A DNA stretch of 64,000 nt. Origin: an uncultured Chloroflexia bacterium (lineage in GTDB: Bacteria; Chloroflexota; Anaerolineae; Anaerolineales; UBA4823). The notes under the pieces were generated by a model that was given only the letters and a program-made list of their open reading frames with translations, ran no database searches and had not been told where the DNA came from. Positions 38,942 through 63,768 of this stretch are shown here, piece by piece; within the stretch, counting starts at the first letter, position 1; the number at the start of each line of letters is the position of its first letter. The position numbers were made by a program, and so were the translations under genes. The stretch lies in assembly GCA_963746255.1 (NCBI GenBank), contig CAVVAJ010000005.1, positions 301,346-365,345 of the forward strand. The letters are read 5' to 3'.

Positions 38942-39036
38942 TGGATCTCCTTGTTCAGGATTTATTTTGAAAACTGAGTCACCACAGGGTGGAAACTTGA
39001 CACAGATGCAGGGCCGATTATAATACGGCTAAGCTT

Positions 39037-39118
39037 GCGCTGGTGCTGGAATTGGCAGACAGGCATGGTTGAGGGCCATGTGCCGCAAGGCGTGTGGGTT
39101 CAACTCCCACCCAGCGCA
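39037..39118 (+). tRNA. tRNA-Leu (anticodon GAG), type II with long variable arm
   Basis: Manual fold: acceptor GCGCTGG/CCAGCGC, anticodon stem CATGG/CCATG with loop TTGAGGG, T-arm GTGGG-TTCAACT-CCCAC; no encoded CCA. Confidence 0.8.
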
Positions 39119-39125
39119 TGAGTAG

Positions 39126-40495: not shown

Positions 40496-42748
40496 CTACT
40501 GCACCAGTCCCCACATCAGATTGAGTTCTTCCAGCTTGCCATCCGCTTTCATCGAGAGCAAGGCGGCGTCAACCGCATCTCGCAGCTCGCTGCCTGGCGG
40601 GAAGACGAAACCGAGCTGTTCATCGGATGTGAGCTGTCCAATGATCTTGAGCTTGCCTTCATTCGCTTCCATAAAACCGAGCGCGGACACATTGTCAATC
40701 ACCACACCATCGATGTCATTGGCGAGCAGTGCTAGGATTGTGGCGGGGAAATCTTCAAAGGACTTGATGCGCTCGACCGGGAAGTACTCCTGGGCAACAA
40801 TCTCGTTGGTGGTCCCGATCTGTGTACCGATCAGCATATTGTCATCCGCGACGAAGTCATCAACCGTAGCGGTTTCATCGGTGCGCACCAGCAAGGTCTG
40901 TCCGATGGTGACATAGGGCACCGAGAAATCAACGATCTTGGCACGCTCTTCGGTGATGGTAACGCCATCTGCGAGCCAGTCATACTCGCCCGCTTCCATG
41001 GCTGGGAAAATGCCATCCCAGGCGGCTTCAACGAACAGCGGGACGCAGTTGATCCGGTTACAGATCTCACGGGCAGCGTCGTAGTCCCAACCGACGGGTT
41101 CCCCGCTGGCCTCATCAATCGAGTTGAAGGGCGGATAGGCGTTTTCCACTGCGACAGTGACTTCCATACCACCCAGGTCTGGTAGTTCTGCGGCTGGGGC
41201 TTCTTTGGTGATCAATCCCCAAGTCAGGTTGAGTTCTTCGAGTGTGCCATCCGCTTCCATGGCGAGCAAGGCGGCGTCAACTGCATCTCGCAGCTCGCTG
41301 CCTGGCGGGAAGACGAAACCGAGCTGTTCATCGGATGTGAGCTGTCCAATGATCTTGAGCTTGCCTTCATTCGCTTCCATAAAACCGAGCGCGGACACGT
41401 TGTCAATCACCACACCATCGATGTCATTGGCGAGCAGTGCTAGGATTGTGGCGGGGAAATCTTCAAAGGACTTGATGCGCTCGACCGGGAAGTATTCCTG
41501 GGCAACGATCTCGTTGGTGGTACCGATCTGAGTGCCGATCAGCATATTGTCATCCGCGACGAAGTCATCAACCGAAGCGGTCTCATCGACGCGCACCAAC
41601 AAGGTCTGTCCGATGGTGACGTAGGGTACCGAGAAATCAACGATCTTGGCACGCTCTTCGGTGATGGTAACGCCATCTGCGAGCCAGTCATACTCGCCCG
41701 CTTCCATGGCTGGGAAAATGCCATCCCAGGCGGCTTCAACGAACACTGGGACGCAGTTGATCCGATCACAGATCTCACGGGCAGCGTCGTAGTCCCAACC
41801 GACGGGTTCCCCGCTGGCTTCATCAATCGAGTTGAAGGGCGGATAGGCGTTTTCCACTGCGACAGTGACTTCCATACCACCCAGGTCTGGTAGTTCTGCG
41901 GCTGGGGCTTCTTTGGTGATCAATCCCCAAGTCAGGTTGAGTTCTTCGAGTGTGCCATCCGCTTCCATGGCGAGCAAGGCGGCGTCAACTGCATCTCGCA
42001 GCTCGCTGCCTGGCGGGAAGACGAAACCGAGCTGTTCATCGGATGTGAGCTGTCCAATGATCTTGAGCTTGCCTTCATTCGCTTCCATAAAACCGAGCGC
42101 GGACACATTGTCAATCACCACACCATCGATGTCATTGGCGAGCAGTGCTAGGATTGTGGCGGGGAAATCTTCAAAGGACTTGATGCGCTCGACCGGGAAG
42201 TATTCCTGGGCAACGATCTCGTTGGTGGTCCCGATCTGTGTACCGATCAGCATATTGTCATCCGCGACGAAGTCATCAACCGAAGCGGTCTCATCGACGC
42301 GCACCAACAAGGTCTGTCCGATGGTGACGTAGGGTACCGAGAAATCAACGATCTTGGCACGCTCTTCGGTGATGGTAACGCCATCTGCGAGCCAGTCATA
42401 CTCGCCCGCTTCCATGGCTGGGAAAATGCCATCCCAGGCGGCTTCAACGAACAGCGGGACGCAGTTGATCCGGTTACAGATCTCACGGGCAGCGTCGTAG
42501 TCCCAACCGACGGGTTCCCCGCTGGCCTCATCAATCGAGTTGAAGGGCGGATAGGCGTTTTCCACTGCGACAGTGACTTCCACACCCCCAAGATCTGGGA
42601 ATGCTCCGTGAGCTGGTTCCTCCGGTGTTTCTGGTTCTTCAGGCAATTGTTCTGGCGCAGTCGTTGGGGGAGGTGGTGCTTCCGTAGGTGTCGCAGATCC
42701 CCCACAACCTGAGACTGCAATCATAATCATGATTAATATGACTGCCAA
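40496..42748 (-). CDS. Lipoprotein with three tandem near-identical family-3 (polar amino acid) solute-binding domains
   Basis: 750 aa with signal/lipobox MAVILIMIMIAVSGCGG and a Pro/Glu-rich linker. A 236-aa SBP unit (LGGMEVTVAVENAYPPFNSIDEASGEPVGWDYDAAREIC...EELNLTWGLITKEAPAAELPD) is then repeated three times, and the DNA shows a 708-bp period. Confidence 0.85.
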   Translation of the reverse strand: MAVILIMIMIAVSGCGGSATPTEAPPPPTTAPEQLPEEPETPEEPAHGAFPDLGGVEVTVAVENAYPPFNSIDEASGEPVGWDYDAAREICNRINCVPLFVEAAWDGIFPAMEAGEYDWLADGVTITEERAKIVDFSVPYVTIGQTLLVRVDETASVDDFVADDNMLIGTQIGTTNEIVAQEYFPVERIKSFEDFPATILALLANDIDGVVIDNVSALGFMEANEGKLKIIGQLTSDEQLGFVFPPGSELRDAVDAALLAMEADGTLEELNLTWGLITKEAPAAELPDLGGMEVTVAVENAYPPFNSIDEASGEPVGWDYDAAREICDRINCVPVFVEAAWDGIFPAMEAGEYDWLADGVTITEERAKIVDFSVPYVTIGQTLLVRVDETASVDDFVADDNMLIGTQIGTTNEIVAQEYFPVERIKSFEDFPATILALLANDIDGVVIDNVSALGFMEANEGKLKIIGQLTSDEQLGFVFPPGSELRDAVDAALLAMEADGTLEELNLTWGLITKEAPAAELPDLGGMEVTVAVENAYPPFNSIDEASGEPVGWDYDAAREICNRINCVPLFVEAAWDGIFPAMEAGEYDWLADGVTITEERAKIVDFSVPYVTIGQTLLVRTDETATVDDFVADDNMLIGTQIGTTNEIVAQEYFPVERIKSFEDFPATILALLANDIDGVVIDNVSALGFMEANEGKLKIIGQLTSDEQLGFVFPPGSELRDAVDAALLSMKADGKLEELNLMWGLVQ
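40499..42622. repeat. Three tandem 708-bp direct repeats (>95% nt identity) inside the SBP gene
   Basis: The same nt strings recur at 40.55, 41.26 and 41.97 kb, and spurious antisense ORFs recur with a 708-bp offset (40831/41539/42247). Confidence 0.9.
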
Positions 42749-42993
42749 AAGTATAGCGAATTTTCAATTCCTCATTTTTCTCTCCTTGATATATTCGTTG
42801 GAATGAAATTATTGACCATTCTCAATGAACCGGTGCCGCAACCGGAACTAAAGAAGGTGCTCGCCGCCGCCTATATTAGAATAGACTAACTTACGAAATT
42901 TTGCAAGCTGATCCATGTATAATAATAGTCGTTAACCCAGAAAATGCATAGTATGACTGTATAAATTTATGGTTTTGTTACGCGAGGATTACT

Positions 42994-53333: not shown

Positions 53334-54198
53334 TGTGATGATGATGAGTTGTCATATAAATTGGTCTAGGGGGGATATTTCATCAATTGTAATTGGTGAA
53401 GAATACGGGCAGTATATCACAGCACTGCGCAACGCTGGTGTACTCCTGAGAGGATTATATGGGTAACCTGACCACTTATACAGAATAGATATTGCACGAT
53501 CTGGCACATTGAGTATTTATGACGATTGAAGTCTAACTCTTATGGGTTCGGGCAATAAAATGTGAACAGAATTATTGTATTATGGAAAGAAGTAAATAAA
53601 CGAGAAAAGGTGTGGGAAAAAGCCCCATTGGAAAAAACCAGTCCAGAAATAATTCGAGATGATATGGTACGGGGGGGGCAGGTGAGTCATATCAACCGGG
53701 GGGGCGACGACGACCTACTGTTCGTCGGAGAGTTCTATGCTGATTTTTGAGTAATAAATTATTTTATTCACAAGTTCCGAAAGGGAGCAGGATTATGCGG
53801 GGGGCAGAGAAGAATGAAGAGCATTATTACTAGAACAATTGTACTATAAGATTTGGATTTGCGCAAGTGTTCTAGATGAAGAATTTTAGATATTCATTTC
53901 AAATACCCAATTAAAGTTTTGAGGGAGGTAGTCGGTAGAGAGGGGACAAAGACTACCTGCAGCAGCGCGGTGACTCAGATCCTGGCTAACACCTGAATAA
54001 AACGACCAACCCGGGATAGTCATTTGTGCCAGAGAATTTACCATGCAATAAATAACTCGATGGTTATTATAATTATCAAATTAGCTCTCAGTTTCTTTCC
54101 GGTGTGCCTGATTACCTGCCTTACCGCCGCAATGCATATGAACCCCTGCTGCAACTTGCGGCTGGGTGCATCGGATTGTTGGGTTAACTCATGTGCTG

Positions 54199-54915
54199 CT
54201 AATCGTTTCTCAAGTCATCACGTTCTATCTTTTCTGCTTGCCTACTGAGTATGTCTCGCACAGCCAAAGCCGACATGTCTTCGGCGGCCAGTCTGCGGGC
54301 AATTTGTGCAATTGCTGTCTCATAGTCTGCTTGATACTCACTCGAAATTTTACCGTGCACGTCGTGCGTGATTTCCGCCCAAGCGTCTTGAAGTTTTGTC
54401 CGAATCTGGATTTCGCAGATCATGCTATCCTCGACGACAGTGCGTTCTTTTTTGTAGGTCTTCACACGATCATAAGTAATATCTGCCAGAAGGTGTATCG
54501 ATCTGTATCCAGTGCGCTTTGGATCTCTGATGTAGTCTTCCAAAGACCGCGGCTTGATGCGGAACTGCTTGGTAGCCTGGATGTAGTCCAGCATACCGTA
54601 GCAATCATCAACAAACCAGCAAATCACTCTGGCGCCAATAAGGTCCGTGATAACTTCGGTCGGATAGTGGAATATTGGCCAGTTTGTCTTCTCCAGTTTC
54701 CTGAGAAAACTCGCCAATGACTTGACTCTAGCGTACACGTCAACAGCTCTAGACGGGAGTTCGTTTTCTACAGTGTAAGCCGAAGCCAGCTGATCAAGCC
54801 TGATTTTGAGAAGTTGGCTTATCAATTCCAGTTCGTCTTCGTAGGAATCGAAGAACCGAATGGTTCTTTCGGTTAAGAAGTCTCGCCGTTCCTTTCGGGT
54901 TCGGGGCTCGGCCAT
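54199..54915 (-). CDS. RelA/SpoT-domain small alarmone synthetase ((p)ppGpp synthetase, single domain)
   Basis: 238 aa with RVKSLASFLRKL, DLIGARVICWFVDD, GYRSIHLL and EIQIRTKLQDAWAEITHD. Confidence 0.8.
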   Translation of the reverse strand: MAEPRTRKERRDFLTERTIRFFDSYEDELELISQLLKIRLDQLASAYTVENELPSRAVDVYARVKSLASFLRKLEKTNWPIFHYPTEVITDLIGARVICWFVDDCYGMLDYIQATKQFRIKPRSLEDYIRDPKRTGYRSIHLLADITYDRVKTYKKERTVVEDSMICEIQIRTKLQDAWAEITHDVHGKISSEYQADYETAIAQIARRLAAEDMSALAVRDILSRQAEKIERDDLRND

Positions 54916-55215
54916 GACTCACTCCTGCTAGTTTTTTCGTCTCCCCACCGGGAGTTTCACCTGCTGGGCGTTTACATAGTGATTGCTGCTTAATTAGAGC
55001 CAAAAATAGCGAATCGCGCTGCGTATCACTTGGGCGAAGCTCGGCCAGCTGCAAACTGGGTTGGACTGCTCCTTATGCTAATGTTATTGTAACTTACTCA
55101 ATTTCCCTTTTCGCATTTAGTTTCCCCTTTAGTTCTTGCCGTTCTTGTACCCGCTGATCAATTTACTTTTGCCGTTCCTTTCTCATCTAATTATCCTTCC
55201 TGAGGTCCTCATAAC

Positions 55216-55246
55216 AAAAGCAGGCAGCGATCTGCCACCTGCTTTT
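55216..55246. terminator. Rho-independent terminator downstream of the small membrane protein gene
   Basis: AAAAGCAGGCAG-CGAT-CTGCCACCTGCTTTT, symmetric with T/A runs on both sides. Confidence 0.6.
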
Positions 55247-55269
55247 ACAACTTGGGAAGTTATTGCGAA

Positions 55270-55593
55270 TTAATCCCGGGCGGCTTGGAACAGTTCTTTT
55301 AATGCGACCACAATCGTCGCACCAGCGACAAAGGCTACCACAAATGGCAGGACTAATGAAAAAGCTGTCCCCACTACGGGTAAGCTATTAAGCGCCGTCG
55401 CGGAAAGAGTTAACGCAATCGCAGCCAACAAAAAGCTTCGCGTGTCTTCGGCGGTGACATTGAGAATGCCGACAATCACACCCAGGATCGCCAACACCCA
55501 AATCGCCCAGTCGGGTTGATAGAAAAGCCCGGCGAGCACGGCAATAACAAGGCCAATAATAAAAGCCCATTTGCCAATTCTTGCAGTATTCAT
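55270..55593 (-). CDS. Small integral membrane protein (3-4 TM)
   Basis: 107 aa, almost entirely hydrophobic helices. Confidence 0.5.
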   Translation of the reverse strand: MNTARIGKWAFIIGLVIAVLAGLFYQPDWAIWVLAILGVIVGILNVTAEDTRSFLLAAIALTLSATALNSLPVVGTAFSLVLPFVVAFVAGATIVVALKELFQAARD

Positions 55594-56299
55594 TTTAGTC
55601 TCCTTTCAATTAATTGATTACATTGGCGAATAATGGTGCAAACCGTCTTCAAGACGATGCGGTGTTTCACTACTATATAACACTTTTCAGGTAAACAAGT
55701 TATGGGATTATCTCGATATTTGGCTGGGAAGGAGGTTATACGAAAGGGTTCGGCTGCAATATAGCTATCCTGATCCGGTGGGAGAACCATGTTACATGCG
55801 GCCCGAACCCTTACGCTCAGGATGGCACACGGCCATTGCGACCTATGAAGATATTTCCGAAGAGCGATTTGAGTACAAATGGCGATTTGTGGTCATCGCC
55901 GAGGGTTGAGCGCAAGTATCGCAGGGTATTGAATGCTGGGCGGCATGCTGCCACACGGTGCGGTCGTCGCCAGGTGATCCGGGACAGTTGTATCCGCTGT
56001 CGGAGAGGGAGTATCTCATTAGACCCCCTCCTCGGTTCTCCCCCCACGAGGGAAGAAGGTTTTTCTTGGTCCGCATAATTTTTCCCTTGCCCATAGTCTG
56101 CATTACTCCCCATTCCAACTGGGAGGGGGTCGGGGGGTTGGTATATCATCAATCAACACATTATTCTCAGCTCGGTGGGTACATACACCTGGCGGCATTG
56201 CACCCGCCATCTCATCCGCAGTGCTGGTTACAGCGGGCAGATCGAACTGCTGGATGAACTGTCTGGTGAGTGAGCAACCTACCGGGGTAGTATTTACTT

Positions 56300-56569
56300 T
56301 CAATATGTCCAGAACGGGTGGTTACCCGACCCAGGCTGAGTATCTGTCCGTTTTTCAGGCGACTTGTCAAGTGAAATATTGGGACCCTTTCCCTTTGGAT
56401 CAGTGAGAATCACAAAGCCACCACTTGCAGGTCTGACAGGTACATTCCCAAGCACCTCCTGCCATAACTTCATCATTTTATCGAACTCATAGCACCGAAT
56501 TACGATTGAGCCAATTCTCATTTTATAAATGTAACGCCTGGCAAAAAAGGTTTCAACAAAAAGGTGCAA
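56300..56569 (-). pseudogene. Possible truncated VOC/glyoxalase-like gene remnant
   Basis: An 89-aa ORF, IGSIVIRCYEFDKMMKLWQEVLG...GGFVILTDPKG, resembles the first half of a VOC domain but then ends in low-complexity sequence. It sits inside a 1.1-kb non-coding gap. Confidence 0.25.
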
Positions 56570-56675
56570 AGCGCATGTTGAAGGATCTCGGAACTATAGC
56601 TGCCTAACGTCTGGCTTCACCGGCGCCGCGAAGCGGCATCGGGTGGAAGCCAATGTTTGGTTTCTATTTCAAGTA

Positions 56676-57599
56676 TCAACGGGCAAATGCCCGAAAGGGG
56701 TTGACGTGAGTTAGTTGATGGATCATTACTTCATCCAATCCGATAGCCCGCAGCTTTGGCAGAAACTGGTCTGCGAGGTATGTGTATGGTTTGGGAACAC
56801 CGCCACCCGGCAACGCCGGATCATACCATCCTCGGTCATGACTCAGCAGCAATTTACCACCCAAACCAGCGTCTAGTAGGCGTTGAATGTGCTGCAAATA
56901 GTACTCATCAATTTCACTATCGATATTACCAATGGCGTCGTACTCAATCCAAGCCCCGCGTCGAGCCATCTCTAGATGTAACTCGAAATCCGGCTCTGCT
57001 TGGGTATGGATCCAGATAAATCGTTCTACATCATAATTCATCGCCTCGATAATATCGAGTTGGTCCCGAACAACCCGGCCTCGGATCGTATGGCTGCCTA
57101 TAACAGCATTCGTTTCGCGACCAGCAGTTGCAGCCGCCCGTAAGATTTTGGCTTCACATGCAGTTAATCCGTCATCACCTGCGCTCAACTTAATCCAACC
57201 GGCTTGCACACCGCTCTCTTCAATTTCACCTTGCAATTCGCCCAGCATCCAACCGGTCAATTCGGCTTCGCTAGCCGCGTGAGCCCAATCAGGAACCCAA
57301 GGTTCACGATAAATACCAGTTGGAATTACCAAGGGTAGATTGGTGGCTTCAGATACAGCTCGATCAATATCAGCCCGACGTCCCACGCCGACTGTACTGC
57401 ATTCTACAATGGCTGTCACACCGACTTTTTGTGCCTGTTTTATTTCCGGAGCCATTAGCTGGATAACTTCTTCAACTTCAGCCTGGGCATAACCAGGAGT
57501 GTCCCAAGTCCGAAGATCGACAAAGATGTGTTCGTGGGGCAAAATCGACCCCAATTCGGAAGAACTTTTAAGACCAAGGGTGGTAGTTATTCTAGCCAC
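56676..57599 (-). CDS. Phosphotriesterase-family (PTE/Php) metal-dependent hydrolase
   Basis: 307 aa with ILPHEHIFVDL (HxH metal site) near the N-terminus and a TIM-barrel amidohydrolase pattern. Confidence 0.75.
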   Translation of the reverse strand: MARITTTLGLKSSSELGSILPHEHIFVDLRTWDTPGYAQAEVEEVIQLMAPEIKQAQKVGVTAIVECSTVGVGRRADIDRAVSEATNLPLVIPTGIYREPWVPDWAHAASEAELTGWMLGELQGEIEESGVQAGWIKLSAGDDGLTACEAKILRAAATAGRETNAVIGSHTIRGRVVRDQLDIIEAMNYDVERFIWIHTQAEPDFELHLEMARRGAWIEYDAIGNIDSEIDEYYLQHIQRLLDAGLGGKLLLSHDRGWYDPALPGGGVPKPYTYLADQFLPKLRAIGLDEVMIHQLTHVNPFRAFAR

Positions 57600-58144
57600 A
57601 ATACTATTCCTTATCTATTTGCGTTTTCCAAATACCCGCCAGTATTGTAATTATGCAGCGGATAACGGCGAAACCTAACGAATTAAGATTATTGATGTGG
57701 TGCGGTTCCGAATAATACGAACGCTAAACCCAAGATCAGCCACCACATAATCCGCTTTTGAACAAAGCCGAGCAGTCAAAATCGCTATTTGTAATATTAG
57801 CAGAAATTCCCACGAGGTACCCCAGCAAAATCTATGCTGATCTAGAAAGATTGTAGCAATAACCCCCAACATATGCAAGCAACAAGGAAGACGAAAAGCA
57901 AGCTGTGATGTTTAATCGGAGCGCAAACAAAGGGGCAAAGATAGCCACATTTGCAGCCTATTCGATCACAGCAAGACAGGGAGCGGGTACATCAGGGAGG
58001 CTTGCGTTCATAGGTAGGCATGATTTCCTCTTCTTTGCATGTTGCGTCCGGAAAACCGAATCGAGGAAGCTAGGCGAAACAATATGGTACACTAAATTTG
58101 GGGGCTGCGTATCGTGCTCCCCAAATTCAATACACGAGGGAAAT

Positions 58145-60476
58145 ATGACCGATGCAATTACTTTTGGACTGGCACGCATGCACGTGGAATACGGCGAGCG
58201 GCGTGACTTTTTGCCAAAGCTGGTGGCAGACCTGGAGAAACGCGGCGCGCGGGTGTATTTGGAATATGGGTACGGCACCGGTCTGGGATTGACCGAGGAA
58301 GATTATCTGAAGGTCGCTCCGGGGGTGCGCTTTGTTTCGTATCAGGAAGTTTTTAAACAACAAAATGTGCTGGTGTTACGCTGTCCGGCGAACGAGGATT
58401 TGAAAATGATGGAACCAGGCTCCTGCCTGATCTCCATGCTGCACTATCCCACTCGACCGCAGCGCGTGGAATTCCTGCGCTCGCTGGAGATCGAGGCCGT
58501 ATCGCTGGACTCGCTCAAAGACGATTCCGGCCGCCGCATGATCGAAAACCTGCAATCTGTGGCCTGGAACGGGTTGGAAGCGGGTTTCCAGGTGCTGGGC
58601 AGCACCTATCCCTCGCCAGGTCATGGAAAATCCAAAGCGTGGGCCGATCCATGCCACCGTGCTGGGGGTAGGTGCGGTCGGCGGTCACGCGGTGCAGGCA
58701 GCCAGCCGCTACGGCGATATAAAGCTCTGGAAAACGCTGGCCAAACGCGGCACACCCGGCGTACAGGTAACGGCCATTGACTACGACCTGGCCGGGCGAG
58801 AAGAGGTTATGCATGACATCCTGGCGCGCAGCGACCTCCTGGTGGACGCCACCCAGCGCCGTGATACAAGCAAGGCGGTCATCTCCAACGAATGGGTTGG
58901 CTGGCTGCCTGAGCATGCCGTGATCGTGGATTTATCGGTAGACCCGTATATCTGCCAGTATGAGCCAATCGAGGTAAAAGGTATTGAGGGCATTCCACAG
59001 GGCAATCTGGATCAGTATGTTTTCATGCCAAACGACCCGGCGTATGAGCACATACCAGACTGTGTCTCCACAAAAAACCGCCGCTATACGGTTTCCTGTT
59101 ATTCCTGGCCAGGCATCCATCCCAAGAGATGTATGAAATTATACGGGGAGCAAATCCGTCCGATATTACGAACCATCACAGACCGGGGCGGCATTCAGAA
59201 TGTCAACCCACACGGCCGGTATTTTGAACGTGCCATTTGGCAGGCTATGCTTTCGCAATGGGTAAGCCAACTACCTGGCCAGTGGCTCAATCAATCCAGA
59301 GCAGGAGGACAAAGGATGAACCCACCCAAAACCATCGGCTTCCCCCGGATGAGGAACGAAGTAGGAGAGAAGCGCGTTTTCTTACCCGAGTTTATTCAGT
59401 ATCTTGCCAACCTTGGTATGAAAGTGTATATCGAAGAAGGCTATGGCGCACGCTCTGGTTACACGTATGAAGATTACAAGCGCGCCAGTCTCAACATGCA
59501 CATATGCAGCCGCGAGCAGGCCTTCCAAAAGGATGTGTCCATCATCCTGCGCAGCCCTAAACCGGAGGAGTTTGATCTGGTCAAACCCGGCAGCACGCTG
59601 ATCTCCATGCTGCATTATCCAACCCGCTCCAACCGCGTAACCCGATTGCAAGAAGGCGACATCAAGTCCATCTCGCTGGATAGCATCGTCAATGATAGCG
59701 GCATCCGCCTGGTGGAAAACATGAAAGCCGTCGCATGGAACGGTCTCGAAGCGGCCTTTGACTGGCTCGAAATGCAATGGCCAGGCCTGGAACGCCCCGA
59801 CGGGAAACCCATCCAGGTGTTGATCCTGGGGACAGGCATGGTCGGGAAACACGCCATCGAAGCTGCCACCAAACTGGGGAATGTGGAACGCAACAGCGAT
59901 CACATCGCAGAAAAAGGACCGGGTGCTATCGCTCTCTCTGTGGGACGGAATCTTTCATCCAACCCTGTCACGATGGAAGAACTTATGCGGCAATGCGATA
60001 TCCTGGCAGACGCCACCCAGCGCCGCGACACCAGCAAACCGGTTGTTCCAAACGAGTGGATCGCCTGGCTACCAGAGCACGCCGTGATCGTAGACCTGGC
60101 CGTAGACCCGTACACGCTGGATGCCGAACCGCCCGTTGTGCGCGGCGTTGAGGGCATCCCGCAAGGAAACCTGGACCAATACGTCTTCCCGGCAGATGAC
60201 CCTAAATGGGACAAACTTGTACCCGCATCGATTCCATCCAAACACCGCCGCACTACGGTCACATGCTACTCATGGCCGGGCGTGCATCCTGAAGCCTGTA
60301 TGCGGCACTATGCGCACCAACTGGAACCACTCATGTATCACCTGGTCAAAAAAGGCTACGACGGCATCTCCATCGAAGGGGATTACTTCGAGCGCGCGCT
60401 CTACCGCGCCACACTCAAAGCCTGGTTGCAAGATGAAGCTGACAAATCTGGGAGAAAGCAAAAAGGGTCGGAATAG
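58145..60476 (+). CDS. Tandemly duplicated AlaDH/PNT-family dehydrogenase (two full N-domain+Rossmann units in one frame), with a frameshift near 58625-58640 in unit 1
   Basis: Unit 1 N-domain MTDAITFGLARMHVEYGERRDFLP...ISMLHYPTRPQRV...AWNGLEAGF is in frame 2. Its Rossmann domain VLGVGAVGGHAVQAA continues in frame 0. Unit 2 (MNPPKTIGFPRMRNEVGEKRVFLP...ISMLHYPTRSNRV...VLILGTGMVGKHAIEAA) follows with no stop codon between the units. Local GC is about 55%. Confidence 0.6.
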
Positions 60477-60819
60477 GATAACCGGTGGAAAACACATCCG
60501 CTGCCAGCGGGTATTACCTCTTCGATGTGATTCCGGGTGATGATTACTTGGGTCATTGATGAAAACAAGAATGAAGAAAGAATAGCCATTGATGGAATTG
60601 ATGATATTCACAACTTTGCAGATCAAAATTGCCATTGTTCAGCGTTATGATTCTCAGTAGTTATAGTGAAAAACTGCCTAACCCATGTTGTAGCAGACCG
60701 GAGCTATGGGTTGAGCAGAGCGGTGGAGGAGTACATCGCGGAGGCCAACTGGTAAGCCTCCCCTAAAATAATACCAAACGAAATTGGATTTTTCTGGCAC
60801 AATTAAGCAGGAGATTCCG

Positions 60820-61137
60820 ATGAAAAGATCAAGCTACACCGAAACGCAGATAGTCAAAATCCTCAAAGAAGCTGAAGCAGGTGTCGCAGTAGAAGAACCC
60901 AGTCGCCAGCATGGCTTCAGCAAAAGCGCTTTTTACAAATGGAAAGCCAGATACGGTCCCATGGATGCGGCTGCCCTAAAACACCTCAAGGAACTGGAAG
61001 CGGAGAACCAAAAACTGAAAGAGATGTATGCGGACCTGAATCTGGAACACAAAGTGTTGAAGGACATTGTTGAAAAAAGTTGTCACAATAGCGGAGCGCT
61101 GACAGTGAGGTATTCTTTGAACAGTCTGTTGCACTGA
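60820..61137 (+). mobile_element. IS3-family transposase OrfA (HTH + leucine zipper); OrfB missing (IS remnant)
   Basis: MKRSSYTETQIVKILKEAEAGVAVEEPSRQHGFSKSAFYKWKARYG and the canonical A_AAA_AAG slippery heptamer at 61073-61079. All three frames then hit stops within about 60 nt, so there is no transposase catalytic ORF. Confidence 0.75.
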
Positions 61138-61291
61138 CGAGTTGAACCCAGGAATTTTGACGGAACCATTCGCACAGGTATTACATGCAATTGATCGTGC
61201 AGCGTTGAAAGACAGCTTTAAGAAATCTTTGAAGCCATAGATATCCACAGCCGCAAAAAGTGAATCAATTTCGCAGTAGATGGTCAGCTGT

Positions 61292-62872
61292 TTATTCGAG
61301 TTCTTGGCAGCCGGGGCGATTATCGGAAACCTGGGTATAGTCGAAAGGGGTTTTATAGACAGAGAAGAGGCTGATATCCGGCAAGAGTTCGTATTGACCA
61401 TTGAAATAACGGTTGAAAATTACCCGAAATGTGTTGACAGGTGAGATCTGGATATATAAATCCACGCTGCCATTTTCAGGTAGGTAATACGCGTTTAATA
61501 TTTTCATGCGGTTTTTTGGGGCTAGCTCGACACCACCGTGGTCTGCCTGCAGGATAATGACCGGTGGGGTCTCCGATTCAATTATCATCGTACCCAGCAT
61601 TGGAATGAGCTGTTGATTTAAAAAGGTCACCTGGTCGCGGTACGCAGTTAATTTCTCTTGGTCGTAATCCCTAAATTCTCCGTCCGGACCAAAGACATAC
61701 GGTGGGTGGGGGATCACAAGATGGGCGAAGACAAATTTCGGCCCTGATTGTGTTGGTAATTTTTCCAATTGATCAAGAGAATATATGATGCGGTCACGGT
61801 GGATTCGGCGGGGGTTATCGAAATCCGGCAGGAGGTATTCGGGCATCTTTCTGGATGCGTCTACGAAAACTGAGGCTGCTGAGTTATTCAGGAGCATCAA
61901 TTCAAATCCGTTTATCCCGGAAACAATCTGTAAATTTCCTAATGAGGATGGAGATGGCGAGAAGTAGAAATCGGCGTCATCCCATTCGGTGCCTTTAAAA
62001 CCTGTTTCAAATGCGACTATGTCATAGCCGAGTTTTTCAAATATTTTACGCACCTTGCTGTGCTGGATGAATTCATGGATGCCGATCCTTTTTTGATTGC
62101 CTGGATTAAATTGCTCACTCAGCCTGTCTAGATAATCATAATTCAACGAGGATGCTAGAGATAATTGGGTCTGGGAATAATTACTCTGACTGCAGTTGGC
62201 AACAAAAAAACCGAGCTGTTCCAGTTGATTTAAGAACGAGGAATTATCCAGATCATAATATTTAAGCAGTTCATCATCTCGCGAATAGGCATCCAAGATG
62301 ATGTAGTAGACATCTGGCGGACTCGTACCTTGTGAGAAGCGTAATATCCCGGATTCAGCATCGATATAATCTTCATCAGCTGCCGTTGGTTGAGCATGAA
62401 AACTGTAAGATGCAATCTGGAAAAGCGGTATGATCAAGGCAATGGATGCAACCAGGTTGAGGTATCTGTTGGTATTTTTCAATTCTGGCTTTACCCGTCT
62501 CAGCCAATAAAATATCACGGTCAGCACTGCTATCGATATAGGTATGAGTAACCGGTGTCTGGCAGCAGCAACCCCGATGCGATCCATATCTTTCAGGAAG
62601 TGGTACACGTGGCCGTAGCTGAAGAAGGTGATCAGGGTAGTTGTTGTCAGAATTGCAGCATAGTCCCACTGCTTAAGTATTAATCGGAAGATGATCATCA
62701 ACAATATTGATACCAGGAGTGAGACAAAGAGTGCTCGCACCGCAACATACGGTCTGATCTCTTCGATATTGTGACCCAGGAGAGCTATCCCTGGATACAG
62801 CGCGAAAAGTAATGGGTAAATGGGAAGTTTAATCAAGCTGCTCAAATTTTCGGTAATTTTCATATCAAACAA
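61292..62872 (-). CDS. Membrane protein with N-terminal 5-TM region and extracytoplasmic sulfatase/alkaline-phosphatase-superfamily-like domain (LtaS/EptA-like)
   Basis: 526 aa with TM helices over the first ~150 aa, then DVYYIILDAYSRDDE; the call rests on this architecture resemblance only. Confidence 0.4.
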   Translation of the reverse strand: MFDMKITENLSSLIKLPIYPLLFALYPGIALLGHNIEEIRPYVAVRALFVSLLVSILLMIIFRLILKQWDYAAILTTTTLITFFSYGHVYHFLKDMDRIGVAAARHRLLIPISIAVLTVIFYWLRRVKPELKNTNRYLNLVASIALIIPLFQIASYSFHAQPTAADEDYIDAESGILRFSQGTSPPDVYYIILDAYSRDDELLKYYDLDNSSFLNQLEQLGFFVANCSQSNYSQTQLSLASSLNYDYLDRLSEQFNPGNQKRIGIHEFIQHSKVRKIFEKLGYDIVAFETGFKGTEWDDADFYFSPSPSSLGNLQIVSGINGFELMLLNNSAASVFVDASRKMPEYLLPDFDNPRRIHRDRIIYSLDQLEKLPTQSGPKFVFAHLVIPHPPYVFGPDGEFRDYDQEKLTAYRDQVTFLNQQLIPMLGTMIIESETPPVIILQADHGGVELAPKNRMKILNAYYLPENGSVDLYIQISPVNTFRVIFNRYFNGQYELLPDISLFSVYKTPFDYTQVSDNRPGCQELE

Positions 62873-62945
62873 ATCACTAATTCATAAAAACAATGCTCCA
62901 AACTGGATGTTTGGAGCCGGCGTTATCCAAGATTATTCTAGAAAG

Positions 62946-63017
62946 AGCGGGTGACGGGACTCGAACCCGTGACATCCTGCTTGGGAAGCAGACGTTCTAC
63001 CACTGAACTACACCCGC
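62946..63017 (-). tRNA. tRNA-Gly (anticodon CCC)
   Basis: The reverse complement reads GCGGGTGTAGTTCAGTGGTAGAACG...CTGCTTCCCAAGCAG...GGGTTCGAGTCCCGTCACCCGCT. Acceptor GCGGGTG/CACCCGC; anticodon loop TTCCCAA. Confidence 0.8.
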
Positions 63018-63054
63018 CGATGTTTTTGGATTATAGTCATGGCCGCGATAGATG

Positions 63055-63768
63055 TCAAGTCAGTTGATCTGCTGGTGCAATTTCATAAACGTAGGCATTA
63101 CCACGTTTGCCGGTCATTCTGATATTGCCCATGTGCTTTAAACAATAGGACATCTTTTGGGCAAGGCGCAGCGGAATAGAACCCTGCTCAGCCAAATCAC
63201 GTGCGGAAAAAGAGGTTGGTAGGTCTGGCGGCAGAAACTGTTGAAAATCACGCGGATTTTTCAAGACCAACCGGTCGATAACTGCAGTTAACGTGCGGTC
63301 AGAGATGCTCCAACCTTTCCGCCGCCATGATCCTTTTCCATCTTGAATGCGGATCTCCTCGACATGTATAAGTAAGATTTCTAGGCTGAATTGGGGGTGA
63401 GTGATTAGATCTGGTATACGGACTAGTTCATCGAATATGTGGATAAATCGACCGCGCTTGGGTGACTTCCGGCGCGAAGGAGAATTATTGCCATTTTCTG
63501 GAAGGCGGGTGATCCATTTCTCCTGGGAAATTGGATGGACGAGATGGACAGTGTGATTTTCGAGCAATGTACGGAGTTTATGCTTGATTTGGGCGAAATT
63601 TCGGGTTTGGATTTCGATCAGCAGATCATCCCGCAGGATATCGATTACGTAACCGTTCATTGGGACTTCAAGTCGATCGCCGGGGATGGCATACCAATCT
63701 TTTACTGCCGCGTGGAGTGAGGATTCACTTAGGGTTCCAATTAATGGGCTGGATCCTTCATCCTTCAT
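63055..63768 (-). CDS. Hypothetical protein, possible PD-(D/E)xK nuclease-fold
   Basis: 237 aa with YVIDILRDDLLIEIQTR, a D...(D/E)xK-like motif, and a basic Ser/Arg-rich internal segment. It lies immediately next to tRNA-Gly. Confidence 0.3.
   Translation of the reverse strand: MKDEGSSPLIGTLSESSLHAAVKDWYAIPGDRLEVPMNGYVIDILRDDLLIEIQTRNFAQIKHKLRTLLENHTVHLVHPISQEKWITRLPENGNNSPSRRKSPKRGRFIHIFDELVRIPDLITHPQFSLEILLIHVEEIRIQDGKGSWRRKGWSISDRTLTAVIDRLVLKNPRDFQQFLPPDLPTSFSARDLAEQGSIPLRLAQKMSYCLKHMGNIRMTGKRGNAYVYEIAPADQLT

What the first reader, a model, noticed from the sequence alone, without database searches (positions are those of the whole stretch)
57900..63768. GC-rich island next to tRNA-Gly: tandem-duplicated, frameshifted AlaDH-family dehydrogenase, an IS3 remnant and a sulfatase-like membrane gene
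The segment 57.9-60.5 kb is visibly GC-richer than the rest of the window (about 55% versus 45%), and its reverse strand is full of spurious ORFs as a result. It encodes two complete AlaDH/PNT-like units in tandem with no stop codon between them. The first unit carries a frameshift between its N-domain and its Rossmann domain, possibly a ~13-nt insertion relative to unit 2 near 58625-58640. An IS3 OrfA follows directly, with an intact A AAA AAG slippery site but no OrfB. A membrane sulfatase-like gene and then tRNA-Gly(CCC) come next. This pattern fits a horizontally acquired island inserted at a tRNA, caught in the middle of duplication and decay.
Basis: partly seen in the sequence, partly recalled or inferred. 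Interest (0 to 1): 0.6.

Follow-up and report, generated by a model that had tools for sequence, protein, structure and literature searches.

The report
Acquired dehydrogenase gene pair, one broken
A 2.4-kb, GC-rich two-gene dehydrogenase operon that is widespread in Anaerolineales bacteria was horizontally acquired here; its first gene is broken by two single-base insertions, an ordinary case of gene transfer and decay (or of assembly error), not a tRNA-targeted island or a fresh duplication.

Summary
58145-60476 is 55.7% GC against 46% elsewhere, with GC3 of 64-65% against 43.7±4.8%. It holds two AlaDH/PNT-like genes with no stop between them in one frame, then an IS3 OrfA fragment, a sulfatase-like gene and tRNA-Gly(CCC).

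Most of the interpretation does not hold.
- The two units are only 43-48% identical. They form a conserved bicistronic operon (390 aa + 386 aa, ATGA overlap) across Anaerolineales, so this is not a recent duplication.
- Unit 1 carries two 1-nt insertions, at 58621 and about 59283, not a 13-nt insertion. The second removes the normal stop and puts unit 1 in frame with unit 2.
- A backbone relative (L076, 90% nt) shows that the tRNA, the sulfatase-like gene and 200 nt beyond it are native. The lineage-specific segment is 55975-61089. The IS3 fragment ends exactly at its right junction.
- There is no tRNA direct repeat and no integrase.

Horizontal acquisition of the 2.4-kb cassette (58021-60512) is well supported. 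It is 94% identical to a copy in a 52%-GC genome with unrelated flanks, whereas other clades keep synteny at 83-87%.

Whether the frameshifts are real or assembly errors is unresolved, at about 50:50. Both lie at CCWGG motifs.

Natural unit1-unit2 fusions suggest a heteromeric, uncharacterised oxidoreductase.

The parts
55975..61089 (.). Lineage-specific 5.1-kb segment between two backbone anchors. The relative L076 carries an unrelated 2.9 kb at this position.
   Evidence: L076 79-2897 matches window 63946-61090 at 90% nt. L076 5839-6031 matches window 55974-55764 at 84%. Nothing in between is homologous.
56300..56569 (-). Short ORF resembling the first half of a glyoxalase/VOC domain; possibly a gene remnant.
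   Evidence: Glyoxalase_6, E = 0.01, profile positions 1-54 of 106 only. Weak evidence.
56676..57599 (-). Intact phosphotriesterase-family gene with host-like composition (GC3 42.5%).
   Evidence: PF02126, E = 2.6e-42. GC3.
58021..60512 (+). Transferred cassette: the block homologous to relatives, holding promoter, leader, gene A, gene B and about 35 nt of 3' tail.
   Evidence: 93.9% nt identity to L001 over 58021-60500. 86-88% identity to L002, L006, L007 and L016 over about 58077-60488. Homology stops on both sides.
58085..58093 (+). Conserved extended -10-like box, TGGTACACT.
   Evidence: Conserved as TATGGTA(A/C)ACT in relatives. Promoter function is inferred.
58100..58121 (+). Conserved 5'-leader hairpin (GGGGGC ... 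GCTCCC).
   Evidence: RNAalifold predicts 6 pairs; 3 of them show a compensatory change in at least one relative.
58145..59319 (+). Gene A (unit 1), an AlaDH/PNT-like protein of 390 aa in relatives. Here it is read in frames 2, then 0, then 1 because of two 1-nt insertions.
   Evidence: DNA alignment to L001, L002, L006, L007, L016 and L018. Deleting bases 58621 and 59283 restores a 390-aa ORF that is 92% identical to L001.
58621..58621 (+). Insertion 1: an extra T immediately 3' of CCAGG, between the N-domain and the Rossmann domain.
   Evidence: CCAGG-CATGG in both orthologues aligned at this site, L001 and L002. Motif context.
59281..59284 (+). Insertion 2: one extra base (GGCCAGTGGC against GGCCAA-GGC). 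It abolishes the normal stop and puts gene A in frame with gene B.
   Evidence: Absent from L001, L018, L007, L016, L006 and L002.
59303..59308 (+). Shine-Dalgarno sequence AGGAGG for gene B, 7 nt before its ATG.
   Evidence: Read from the sequence. Conserved in relatives.
59316..60476 (+). Gene B (unit 2), an AlaDH/PNT-like protein of 386 aa, intact.
   Evidence: 94-95% aa identity to P0001-P0003. Pfam N and C domains score above cut-off. AlaDH/PntA fold.
60751..61089 (+). IS3-family 5' remnant: a putative left end TGGTAAGCC..., OrfA from ATG 60814, and the slippery A AAA AAG at 61073-61079. It is truncated about 10 nt later.
   Evidence: HTH_Tnp_1, E = 3e-18; NF033516 positions 2-83 of 369. 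Backbone homology to L076 resumes at about 61090. The left end at 60751 is inferred only.
61292..62863 (-). Sulfatase-like (alkaline-phosphatase superfamily) membrane protein of 523 aa. It is native backbone, not island.
   Evidence: 89% aa identity (P0122/L076) and 82% (L022) in the same position beside tRNA-Gly. GC3 is 48.9%.
62945..63017 (-). tRNA-Gly(CCC), native and conserved in L076 and L022.
63055..63768 (-). DUF8091 gene, native backbone.
   Evidence: An identical protein lies on an independent Logan contig in the same gene order. The L076 gene order matches.

Best explanation
The GC-rich block is one copy of a self-contained, two-gene operon. It encodes two anciently diverged AlaDH/PNT-superfamily paralogues: A (390 aa) and B (386 aa). 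The operon has its own promoter-like box and leader hairpin. The A stop overlaps the B start (ATGA).

The operon is common in Anaerolineales (Chloroflexota). In the clade that includes this window it behaves as a mobile 2.4-kb cassette. Here it arrived by horizontal transfer from a GC-richer relative. It now sits in a 5.1-kb lineage-specific segment (55975-61089). The right edge of that segment is marked by the 5' 340 bp of an IS3-family element.

The neighbouring sulfatase-like gene, tRNA-Gly(CCC) and the DUF8091 gene are ordinary backbone.

In the sequence as given, gene A has two +1 single-base insertions:
- The first separates its substrate domain from its Rossmann domain.
- The second removes its stop and places the rest of A in frame with B.

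Gene A therefore cannot yield a normal protein. Gene B is intact and keeps its own strong ribosome-binding site.

What is shown: the anatomy, the age of the paralogues, the backbone and island boundaries, the compositional anomaly and the lack of synteny.

What is inferred:
- the direction and mechanism of the transfer;
- that A and B act as a heteromer (from translational coupling and from natural A-B fusions);
- that the enzyme is an NAD(P)-dependent oxidoreductase acting on a carboxylate-bearing substrate.

I put about 50% on the two insertions being real mutations (a decaying accessory gene). The rest goes to the assembly-error rival.
For: Ancient paralogues and a conserved operon:
- Window A and B are 43-48% identical to each other. 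Each has 65-95% orthologues in the same order, with a 4-bp overlap, in L001, L002, L006-L012, L014, L016, L017, L019 and L020.

Two 1-nt insertions:
-.

Foreign origin of the cassette:
- GC3 z = +4.3 and +4.5.
- Cassette GC tracks host GC in 13 relatives (r = 0.81). That predicts 50.7% here; 55.7% is observed, +3.1 SD.
- It is 94% nt identical to L001, whose flanks are 52% GC and unrelated. No flank homology exists with any of the 86-94% relatives. L008/L009 (87%) and L014/L017 (83%) keep 81-87% flank synteny.
- One MAG carries two copies (98% over 2.9 kb) in different contexts.

Backbone and boundaries:
- Collinearity with L076 and L022, and the junction alignments.

IS3 remnant:
-.

No general frameshift problem:
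- Every other overlapping ORF pair that was checked consists of two distinct, intact genes.

Heteromer inference:
- ATGA coupling, plus the natural 776-aa A-B fusion P0249 (a cluster of 9 members) and P0014.

Fold and catalytic residues:
- Pfam hits score above cut-off.
- Top PDB hits are AlaDH and PntA dI, at E = 1e-12 to 1e-20 by sequence and 1e-17 by fold.
- The equivalents of AlaDH Arg15, His95 and Asp269 are invariant in both paralogues, and both keep GxGxxG.
Against: - The transfer mechanism is not visible. There are no flanking repeats, no integrase, and no transposase next to the cassette in relatives.
- In most genomes the operon is mildly GC-richer than its flanks (+1 to +5 points), so part of the anomaly is intrinsic to the genes.
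- Only one backbone relative (L076) spans the variable site.
- Reality of the frameshifts is untested. Both lie at CCWGG/GCCAGG motifs (chance about 0.004), which looks like a systematic artefact.
- The 660 nt between the insertions has no stop, and the repaired protein is 92% identical to L001. If real, the lesions are very recent.
- The window-lineage N:S ratio in A (9:7) is not significantly above that of B (7:12) or of L001-A (12:23), p = 0.2-0.3.
- No independent assembly carrying the same insertions could be found.
Confidence: 0.7

Rival explanations
1. The architecture and origin are the same, but the two insertions are assembly or base-calling artefacts. In the organism the A-B operon is intact and functional.
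For: - Both insertions sit at CCWGG/GCCAGG motifs (about 0.4% by chance). That fits motif-specific (for example methylation-linked) consensus errors.
- The repaired ORF is full length and 92% identical to L001.
- No significant excess of non-synonymous change is seen.
- The probable source is a MAG contig of 880,774 bp. From memory, contigs of that size usually come from long reads.
- In another MAG, a duplicate cassette copy (L016) carries 7 clustered single-base deletions. Such local indel clusters therefore occur in assemblies of this cassette.
Against: - None of the roughly 55 other ORFs in the window looks frameshifted, although the window holds 153 CCWGG sites and 37 GCCAGG/CCTGGC sites.
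- Both lesions are non-homopolymer insertions. Typical long-read errors are homopolymer deletions.
- Two hits in one 1.17-kb gene and none in gene B fit relaxed selection after a first hit.
- The segment also holds other apparent remnants: the IS3 5' end and a half VOC domain.
- The motif link for insertion 2 depends on where the indel is placed, because relatives read CCAAGG there.
Confidence: 0.45
2. One reading: a single horizontally acquired island (57.9-63.8 kb) integrated at tRNA-Gly and caught in the middle of tandem duplication and decay of one AlaDH-like gene.
For: The block lies close to a tRNA, is GC-rich, has an IS3 remnant, carries a frameshift, and holds two similar units.
Against: - The units are 43-48% identical, and each has its own orthologues across the order.
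- The tRNA, the sulfatase-like gene and 200 nt beyond it are conserved backbone.
- The window holds no repeat of the tRNA 3' end, and no integrase was found among the ORFs of 53-64 kb.
- The sulfatase-like gene has host-like GC3.
Confidence: 0.03
3. Vertical inheritance: the operon is native here. Its GC-richness is a property of these highly conserved genes, and the lack of synteny reflects fast genome rearrangement.
For: - The operon is 1-5 GC points richer than its flanks in most relatives.
- It is nearly universal in sampled Anaerolineales.
- No conserved neighbours exist anywhere.
Against: - The excess here is +9.7 points, z = 3.3 against relatives.
- 94% nt identity to a copy in a genome whose flanks differ by 6 GC points and share no homology. 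Elsewhere, 83-87% identity comes with syntenic flanks.
- The 90%-identical backbone relative L076 has other DNA at this site.
- The scan of GTDB species representatives found no copy closer than 91% aa.
Confidence: 0.07
4. The frameshifts are programmed: two +1 ribosomal frameshifts yield a full A protein, or a regulated A-B fusion.
For: - The frame between the two sites is open.
- The second shift alone would yield an A-B fusion of the kind seen naturally in P0249.
Against: - All six to eight close orthologues lack both insertions.
- No known +1 shift motif or stimulatory structure is evident at either site.
- Two independent programmed shifts unique to one strain is implausible.
Confidence: 0.01

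Closest known systems
L-alanine dehydrogenase (Ald, EC 1.4.1.1; TIGR00518; PDB 1PJB, 2VHX, 8HYE)
   Same: - Two-domain AlaDH/PNT fold; these are the top fold and sequence hits.
- GxGxxG motif.
- Equivalents of the catalytic Arg15, His95 and Asp269 are conserved.
   Different: - Only about 20% identity: 57.5 bits against an equivalog cut-off of 391.85.
- Lys74 is invariantly replaced by Arg.
- About 15 extra residues lie between helix αA and strand β2.
- It comes as a coupled A/B paralogue pair or as a fusion.
- A canonical AlaDH is encoded separately at 50966-52129.
Domain I of the proton-translocating transhydrogenase alpha subunit (PntA; NF006942, TIGR00561; PDB 1X13, 1F8G)
   Same: - Best NCBIfam hit and an equally good PDB hit.
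- The same fold.
- dI works as a dimer (established knowledge).
   Different: - 63.7 bits against a cut-off of 383.
- No membrane domain II.
- No pntB or domain III gene in any of the contexts examined.
IS3-family insertion sequences (IS3/IS911/IS150 type, OrfA-OrfB by -1 frameshift)
   Same: An OrfA with HTH_Tnp_1 and the A AAA AAG slippery heptamer at the expected place.
   Different: Only about 340 bp of the 5' end remain. There is no DDE OrfB and no right end. Truncation falls about 10 nt after the heptamer, at the junction with backbone DNA.
tRNA-linked genomic islands (integrase-mediated)
   Same: Atypical composition, an IS remnant, and a tRNA within 2 kb.
   Different: - No integrase.
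- No direct repeat of the tRNA 3' end.
- A conserved native gene lies between the tRNA and the variable segment.
- Only the 2.4-kb cassette is compositionally foreign.
LtaS/EptA-like membrane-anchored sulfatase-superfamily transferases
   Same: An N-terminal hydrophobic block (about five predicted helices, judged by eye) followed by a sulfatase-like domain. Homologue clusters carry PF00884.
   Different: The Pfam score is below cut-off in this protein and there is no NCBIfam hit. The function is unknown. It is part of the backbone, not of the acquired DNA.

Membership tests
AlaDH/PNT superfamily (Pfam PF05222 + PF01262) | N-terminal AlaDh_PNT_N domain scoring above the gathering score | tested here: met
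   Unit 1: 52.7 bits. Unit 2: 59.6 bits. Cut-off: 30.4.
AlaDH/PNT superfamily (Pfam PF05222 + PF01262) | Rossmann-type AlaDh_PNT_C domain with GxGxxG | tested here: met
   Unit 2 scores 48.4 bits against a cut-off of 23. GVGAVG (A) and GTGMVG (B) are invariant. Unit 1 in the window gave no separate PF01262 hit, but its orthologues carry a weak one.
AlaDH/PNT superfamily (Pfam PF05222 + PF01262) | Fold matches solved AlaDH / PntA dI structures | tested here: met
   Foldseek top hits are 8HYE, 1PJB, 2VOE and 1X13, E about 1e-17. TM is only about 0.4 because the model is of moderate quality (pLDDT 75, pTM 0.59).
Alanine dehydrogenase proper (TIGR00518 equivalog) | Score above the equivalog cut-off | tested here: not met
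   57.5 bits (B) and 34.2 bits (A orthologue) against a cut-off of 391.85.
Alanine dehydrogenase proper (TIGR00518 equivalog) | Catalytic Arg15, Lys74, His95 and Asp269 | tested here: not met
   Arg, His and Asp are conserved. Lys74 is invariantly Arg (R79) in both paralogues.
PntA transhydrogenase alpha subunit (TIGR00561 / NF006942) | Score above cut-off, a C-terminal membrane domain, and an adjacent pntB | tested here: not met
   63.7 bits against 383. Only profile positions 2-197 of 510 are matched. No pntB-like neighbour appears in the loci whose gene tables were read.
Saccharopine dehydrogenase (LYS1 type) / N5-(carboxyethyl)ornithine synthase | Specific sequence similarity to characterised members | tested here: inconclusive
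   Single-sequence and profile searches of the PDB returned only AlaDH and PntA chains, at E ≤ 0.01 and ≤ 0.001 respectively. No dedicated CEOS model or structure was available to test.
IS3-family insertion sequence | OrfA with an HTH and a slippery A6G motif | tested here: met
   HTH_Tnp_1, E = 3e-18; NF033516 positions 2-83 of 369; heptamer at 61073-61079.
IS3-family insertion sequence | OrfB DDE transposase and two terminal inverted repeats | tested here: not met
   The -1 frame hits stops within about 10 codons. Backbone homology to L076 starts at about 61090. No second copy or matching inverted repeat exists in the window. It is a remnant, not an element.
tRNA-integrated genomic island | Direct repeat of the tRNA 3' end at the distal boundary | tested here: not met
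   The 26-nt 3' part of the tRNA has one match in the window even with up to 3 mismatches. The repeat scan of 54000-63200 found none.
tRNA-integrated genomic island | Integrase/recombinase gene, and the island abutting the tRNA | tested here: not met
   No integrase domain was found among the ORFs of 53-64 kb that were scanned. A native sulfatase-like gene separates the tRNA from the variable segment.
tRNA-integrated genomic island | Composition distinct from the host | tested here: inconclusive
   True only for 58021-60512. PTE (GC3 42.5%), the sulfatase-like gene (48.9%) and OrfA (51.9%) are host-like.
Horizontally transferred gene cassette | Near-identical copy in an unrelated context, absent from the orthologous site of a close backbone relative | tested here: met
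   94% identity to L001 with non-homologous flanks at 52% GC. L076 (90% backbone identity) has other DNA between the same anchors.
Pseudogene (real inactivation) | Frameshifts verified in reads or in independent isolates; relaxed constraint | not testable with these tools
   No reads are available. Exact-product look-ups and a metagenome pattern scan found no second instance. The N:S ratio is not significantly raised.
Sulfatase / alkaline-phosphatase superfamily | PF00884 scoring above the gathering score | tested here: inconclusive
   18.3 bits against a cut-off of 25 in the window protein. Many homologue clusters are annotated PF00884, and one NCBI name reads 'sulfatase-like hydrolase/transferase'.

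The most novel reading that the evidence does not exclude
The conserved A/B pair may be an undescribed heteromeric enzyme of the AlaDH/PNT superfamily that uses two different cofactors.
- Paralogue A keeps an acidic residue at the end of strand β2 (A-[ILV]-[DE]-[YH]-D), which is NAD-type.
- Paralogue B has [SAT]-[VI]-G-R-N there, which is NADP-type.
- The genes are translationally coupled.
- In one clade they are fused into a single 776-aa protein.
- The proteins are unusually conserved (75-95% aa identity across Anaerolineales).

Such an enzyme could couple an NAD-linked step to an NADP-linked step, as in a soluble transhydrogenase-like reaction or a redox-neutral amino-acid or opine conversion. 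In one clade it spreads as a 2.4-kb mobile cassette.

Insertion 2 in this window would then be a fresh example of how the A-B fusion arises: any +1 shift in the last ~12 codons of A reads straight into B.
Probability: 0.2. Interest if true: 0.6.

Novelty: new member of a known kind. Interest (0 to 1): 0.3.

Why it matters
For genome annotation the result is corrective.
- This is not a tRNA island or a duplication in progress.
- It is a small transferred operon in a variable locus.
- One of its genes should be flagged as frameshifted, pending read-level verification.

The wider point concerns the operon itself. It is a very widespread and highly conserved pair of AlaDH/PNT-like paralogues in Anaerolineales, with about 2,900 clustered proteins. 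It has no characterised member, no informative neighbours, natural fusions, and paralogue-specific cofactor motifs. This abundant and poorly cultivated group dominates many sediments and digesters, so the function of the pair is worth testing biochemically.

The co-location of both indels with CCWGG motifs is also a practical warning for anyone calling pseudogenes in MAGs.

Tried and rejected
- A riboswitch or known RNA upstream of the operon, or elsewhere in 53.3-64 kb: Rfam gave only the tRNA.
- A tRNA-derived att repeat: none.
- Other copies of the IS or of the cassette flanks in the window or in the loci held at the time of each search: none.
- Synteny between the window and L001 through LytR and helicase genes: the LytR proteins are only 43-46% identical and the 759-aa ORF is unrelated. 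Rejected.
- A general frameshift problem in the window: five overlapping ORF pairs all turned out to be distinct intact genes.
- Finding the window's own gene calls, or an independent copy of the frameshifted products: exact look-ups of the 617-aa, 386-aa, 211-aa and 523-aa products failed. A search with the 617-aa ORF found no near-identical protein. A JGI metagenome scan for the junction pattern, with or without the extra T, found nothing.
- Function from gene neighbourhood: every context differs.
- Literature: two full-text searches returned nothing.
- The afdb50 fold library was unavailable.
- An AF2 run on the natural fusion was not attempted. MAFFT misplaced the only unit 1 N-terminal row, so the first 143 residues would have had no alignment depth.
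- RNAalifold on a wide leader alignment gave no structure. A narrower one gave the 6-bp hairpin.
- The VOC-like ORF could not be shown to continue in another frame.

Full report
**1. What is in the sequence**

Composition
- 58145-60476 is 55.7% GC. The rest of the window is 46.0%. This is the GC-richest 2.3-kb stretch of the 64 kb.
- Third-position GC is 64.2% and 65.1% for the two coding units. The 49 other long ORFs average 43.7 ± 4.8%, giving z = +4.3 and +4.5.
- The minus strand of the block is full of short ORFs, as expected for GC-rich coding DNA.

Genes
- Pfam finds AlaDh_PNT_N in both units and AlaDh_PNT_C in the second, all above the gathering scores.
- Downstream lies HTH_Tnp_1 (IS3 OrfA).
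- Next is a 523/526-aa membrane protein with a sub-threshold Sulfatase match.
- tRNA-Gly(CCC) is at 62945-63017 on the minus strand.

**2. The two units are an old, conserved operon, not a fresh duplication**

- Unit 2 has about 2,900 clustered homologues. The best 120 are all 75-95% identical, and the few that carry an organism name are from Anaerolineales/Anaerolineae.
- In nearly every relative whose DNA I could read, a 376-394-aa gene (A) precedes a 386-388-aa gene (B). This holds for L001, L002, L006-L012, L014, L016, L017, L019 and L020. The pair is usually joined by an ATGA overlap.
- Window A (after repair) is 66-92% identical to the A genes of relatives. It is only 42-46% identical to their B genes. 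The converse holds for B.
- The duplication therefore predates the divergence of these lineages.
- No neighbouring gene is conserved from one context to another. The pair is a self-contained unit.
- A short conserved leader precedes gene A. It has an extended -10-like box, TGGTACACT (58085-58093). A hairpin follows at 58100-58121, and its stem co-varies in relatives.

**3. The lesions in gene A**

A DNA alignment with L001 (94%) and L002 covers all of gene A, and one with L001, L006, L007, L016 and L018 covers its 3' part. Together they show exactly two differences in length.
- An extra T at 58621: CCAGG[T]CATGG.
- One extra base at 59281-59284: GGCCAGTGGC against GGCCAA-GGC.

Gene A starts at ATG 58145 in frame 2, continues in frame 0 after the first insertion, and should end in frame 1 at TGA 59317-59319, which overlaps the ATG of B. 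Deleting the two bases restores a 390-aa ORF that is 92% identical to L001-A.

- The suggested ~13-nt insertion is wrong.
- The two extra residues of A at the interdomain linker, relative to B, are a conserved paralogue difference.
- Gene B is intact and keeps AGGAGG 7 nt before its ATG.

The second insertion alone would create an in-frame A-B fusion. Such fusions exist naturally in a more distant clade:
- P0249 is 776 aa, full length, in a cluster of nine members.
- P0014 (L005) is a partial example.

**4. Where the foreign DNA begins and ends**

The cassette
- Homology to every cassette-bearing relative is confined to 58021/58077 through 60488/60512.

The backbone
- An exact copy of the sulfatase-like protein lies on an 880,774-bp NCBI/ENA contig, which is probably the source.
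- An 89%-identical copy lies on ENA contig L076.
- L076 is collinear with the window at 90% nt from 63946 down to about 61090. That covers DUF8091, tRNA-Gly(CCC), the sulfatase-like gene and 200 nt past its stop.
- L076 matches again at window 55974-55764 (84%).
- L022 (85%) confirms the tRNA and sulfatase-like block.

The variable segment
- Between the anchors L076 has an unrelated 2.9 kb. The window has 5.1 kb (55975-61089), holding in order:
 - a possible half VOC domain;
 - an intact phosphotriesterase-family gene with host-like GC3;
 - the cassette;
 - 238 nt of unknown origin;
 - the IS3 fragment.
- Backbone homology resumes about 10 nt after the A AAA AAG heptamer. Only the 5' ~340 bp of the IS survive, and the last 16 codons of the 'OrfA' ORF are backbone DNA.

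The tRNA-island model
- The tRNA and the sulfatase-like gene are native.
- The window holds no repeat of the tRNA 3' end.
- No integrase was found among the ORFs scanned.
- The tRNA-island model fails its defining tests.

**5. Evidence for horizontal transfer of the cassette**

- Composition: see section 1.
- Host tracking: in 13 relatives the cassette GC follows the flank GC (r = 0.81). For a 46% host that predicts 50.7%. The observed 55.7% is 3.1 residual SD higher.
- Synteny by clade:

| Comparison | Cassette nt identity | Flanks |
|---|---|---|
| L008 vs L009 | 87% | syntenic at mostly 87% (one 1.1-kb stretch at 79%) |
| L014 vs L017 | 83% | syntenic at mostly 81-83% (one 0.4-kb stretch at 73%) |
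| Window vs L001 | 94% | no homology; L001 flanks are 52% GC |
| Window vs L016, L007, L002, L006 | 86-88% | no homology |

- Duplication: one MAG (MFD03804.bin.2.42) holds two copies that are 98% identical over 2.9 kb, in different contexts.
- Site occupancy: the 90%-identical backbone relative lacks the cassette at this site.

Together these make acquisition from a GC-richer relative the best reading. The mechanism is not visible. The adjacent IS3 stump is circumstantial evidence only.

**6. Are the frameshifts real?**

For real decay:
- None of the other ORFs in the window looks broken. All five suspicious overlapping ORF pairs are distinct intact genes.
- Both hits are in one 1.17-kb gene and none is in B.
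- They are non-homopolymer insertions.
- The segment holds other apparent remnants.

For an artefact:
- Both insertions touch CCWGG (GCCAGG). This has about a 0.4% chance if indels fell at random in A. The placement of the second indel is ambiguous, however.
- The interval between the insertions is stop-free and well conserved.
- The window-lineage N:S ratio in A (9:7) is not significantly raised.
- The source is a MAG with a very long contig.
- The duplicate copy L016 in another MAG shows seven clustered single-base deletions.
- I could find no independent assembly with or without these bases in the same context.

I leave this at about 50:50. Read-level data would settle it.

**7. What the operon probably does**

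- Sequence and profile searches of the PDB, and a fold search with an AF2 model, all return only L-alanine dehydrogenases and transhydrogenase domain I. The model has pLDDT 75 and pTM 0.59.
- The NCBIfam equivalogs for AlaDH and PntA are missed by a wide margin.
- There is no membrane domain and no pntB gene.
- A canonical AlaDH is encoded elsewhere in the window, at 50966-52129.
- Both paralogues keep GxGxxG and the equivalents of AlaDH Arg15, His95 and Asp269. Both replace Lys74 by Arg.
- The residues after strand β2, located from the model, differ consistently. A has an acidic D/E-x-D, which is NAD-like. B has G-R-N, which is NADP-like. That cofactor reading is my inference from general Rossmann-fold rules.
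- Translational coupling and natural fusions argue that A and B work together.
- My best guess is a heteromeric NAD(P)-dependent oxidoreductase acting on a carboxylate-bearing substrate. The substrate is unknown.

**8. Verdict**

The case is an ordinary example of a small transferred operon in a variable locus, with possible early decay or an assembly error. The more interesting by-product is the uncharacterised, highly conserved A/B enzyme pair itself.

Noticed in passing
window 58616-58621 and 59279-59285: Both single-base insertions in gene A lie at or within a CCWGG (GCCAGG) motif. About 6% of positions in the gene touch such a motif, so both doing so by chance is about 0.4%. This could be a motif-linked consensus error or a real mutational bias. 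The placement of the second indel is ambiguous.
   Followed up: partly
P0249 (776 aa, Logan) and L005 1-1902 (P0014): Natural in-frame fusions of gene A and gene B exist in a clade about 61-65% identical to the window. They keep the paralogue-specific motifs. This is Rosetta-stone evidence that A and B act together.
   Followed up: partly
alignment A2; window gene B residues 204-212, gene A equivalent: The motif after strand β2 is paralogue-specific. A has A-[ILV]-[DE]-[YH]-D (NAD-like). B has [SAT]-[VI]-G-R-N (NADP-like). Each is conserved across its orthologues.
   Followed up: partly
window 58085-58121: A conserved extended -10-like box (TGGTACACT) is followed at once by a hairpin (58100-58105 pairing with 58116-58121). 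The stem co-varies among relatives. It is probably a 5'-terminal mRNA stem-loop.
   Followed up: partly
L007 8517-11441 and L016 8727-11643: One MAG (MFD03804.bin.2.42) has two cassette copies, 98% identical over 2.9 kb, on different contigs. The L016 copy has seven single-base deletions within 1.6 kb; three of them fall in gene B and frameshift it. This is either decay of a redundant copy or a long-read assembly error.
   Followed up: partly
window 40496-42763 (-): A 755-aa protein with three tandem SBP_bac_3 amino-acid-binding domains is the only other strong compositional outlier (GC 55.6%, GC3 63.5%). It lies next to an ABC permease and near tRNA-Leu(GAG).
   Followed up: partly
window 49662-53351 (-): A canonical alanine dehydrogenase (50966-52129) has strong Pfam hits to both domains. 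It lies between an acetyl-CoA hydrolase/transferase gene and a class-III aminotransferase gene. The genome therefore has a normal AlaDH as well as the A/B pair.
   Followed up: partly
window 53352-54198: An ~850-nt stretch has no convincing ORF, about 41% GC and an unusually strong GC skew (+0.26 to +0.30). No Rfam family matches it.
   Followed up: partly
window 56300-56569 (-): An 89-aa ORF matches only the first half of a glyoxalase/VOC domain (E = 0.01). It may be another gene remnant inside the variable segment. No continuation was found in other frames.
   Followed up: partly
L015 9893-11119; L013 629-1747: Two of the loci read show only a single B-like gene with no A gene detected upstream. 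The family therefore occurs in solo, paired and fused forms.
   Followed up: partly
L018 1-100: The 5' end of this public metagenome contig is poly-C followed by a Nextera adapter sequence (AGATGTGTATAAGAGACAG). This is an artefact in that record.
   Followed up: no
window 39036-39119: ARAGORN calls tRNA-Leu(GAG) here, but the Rfam gathering-threshold scan of the whole window did not report it.
   Followed up: no
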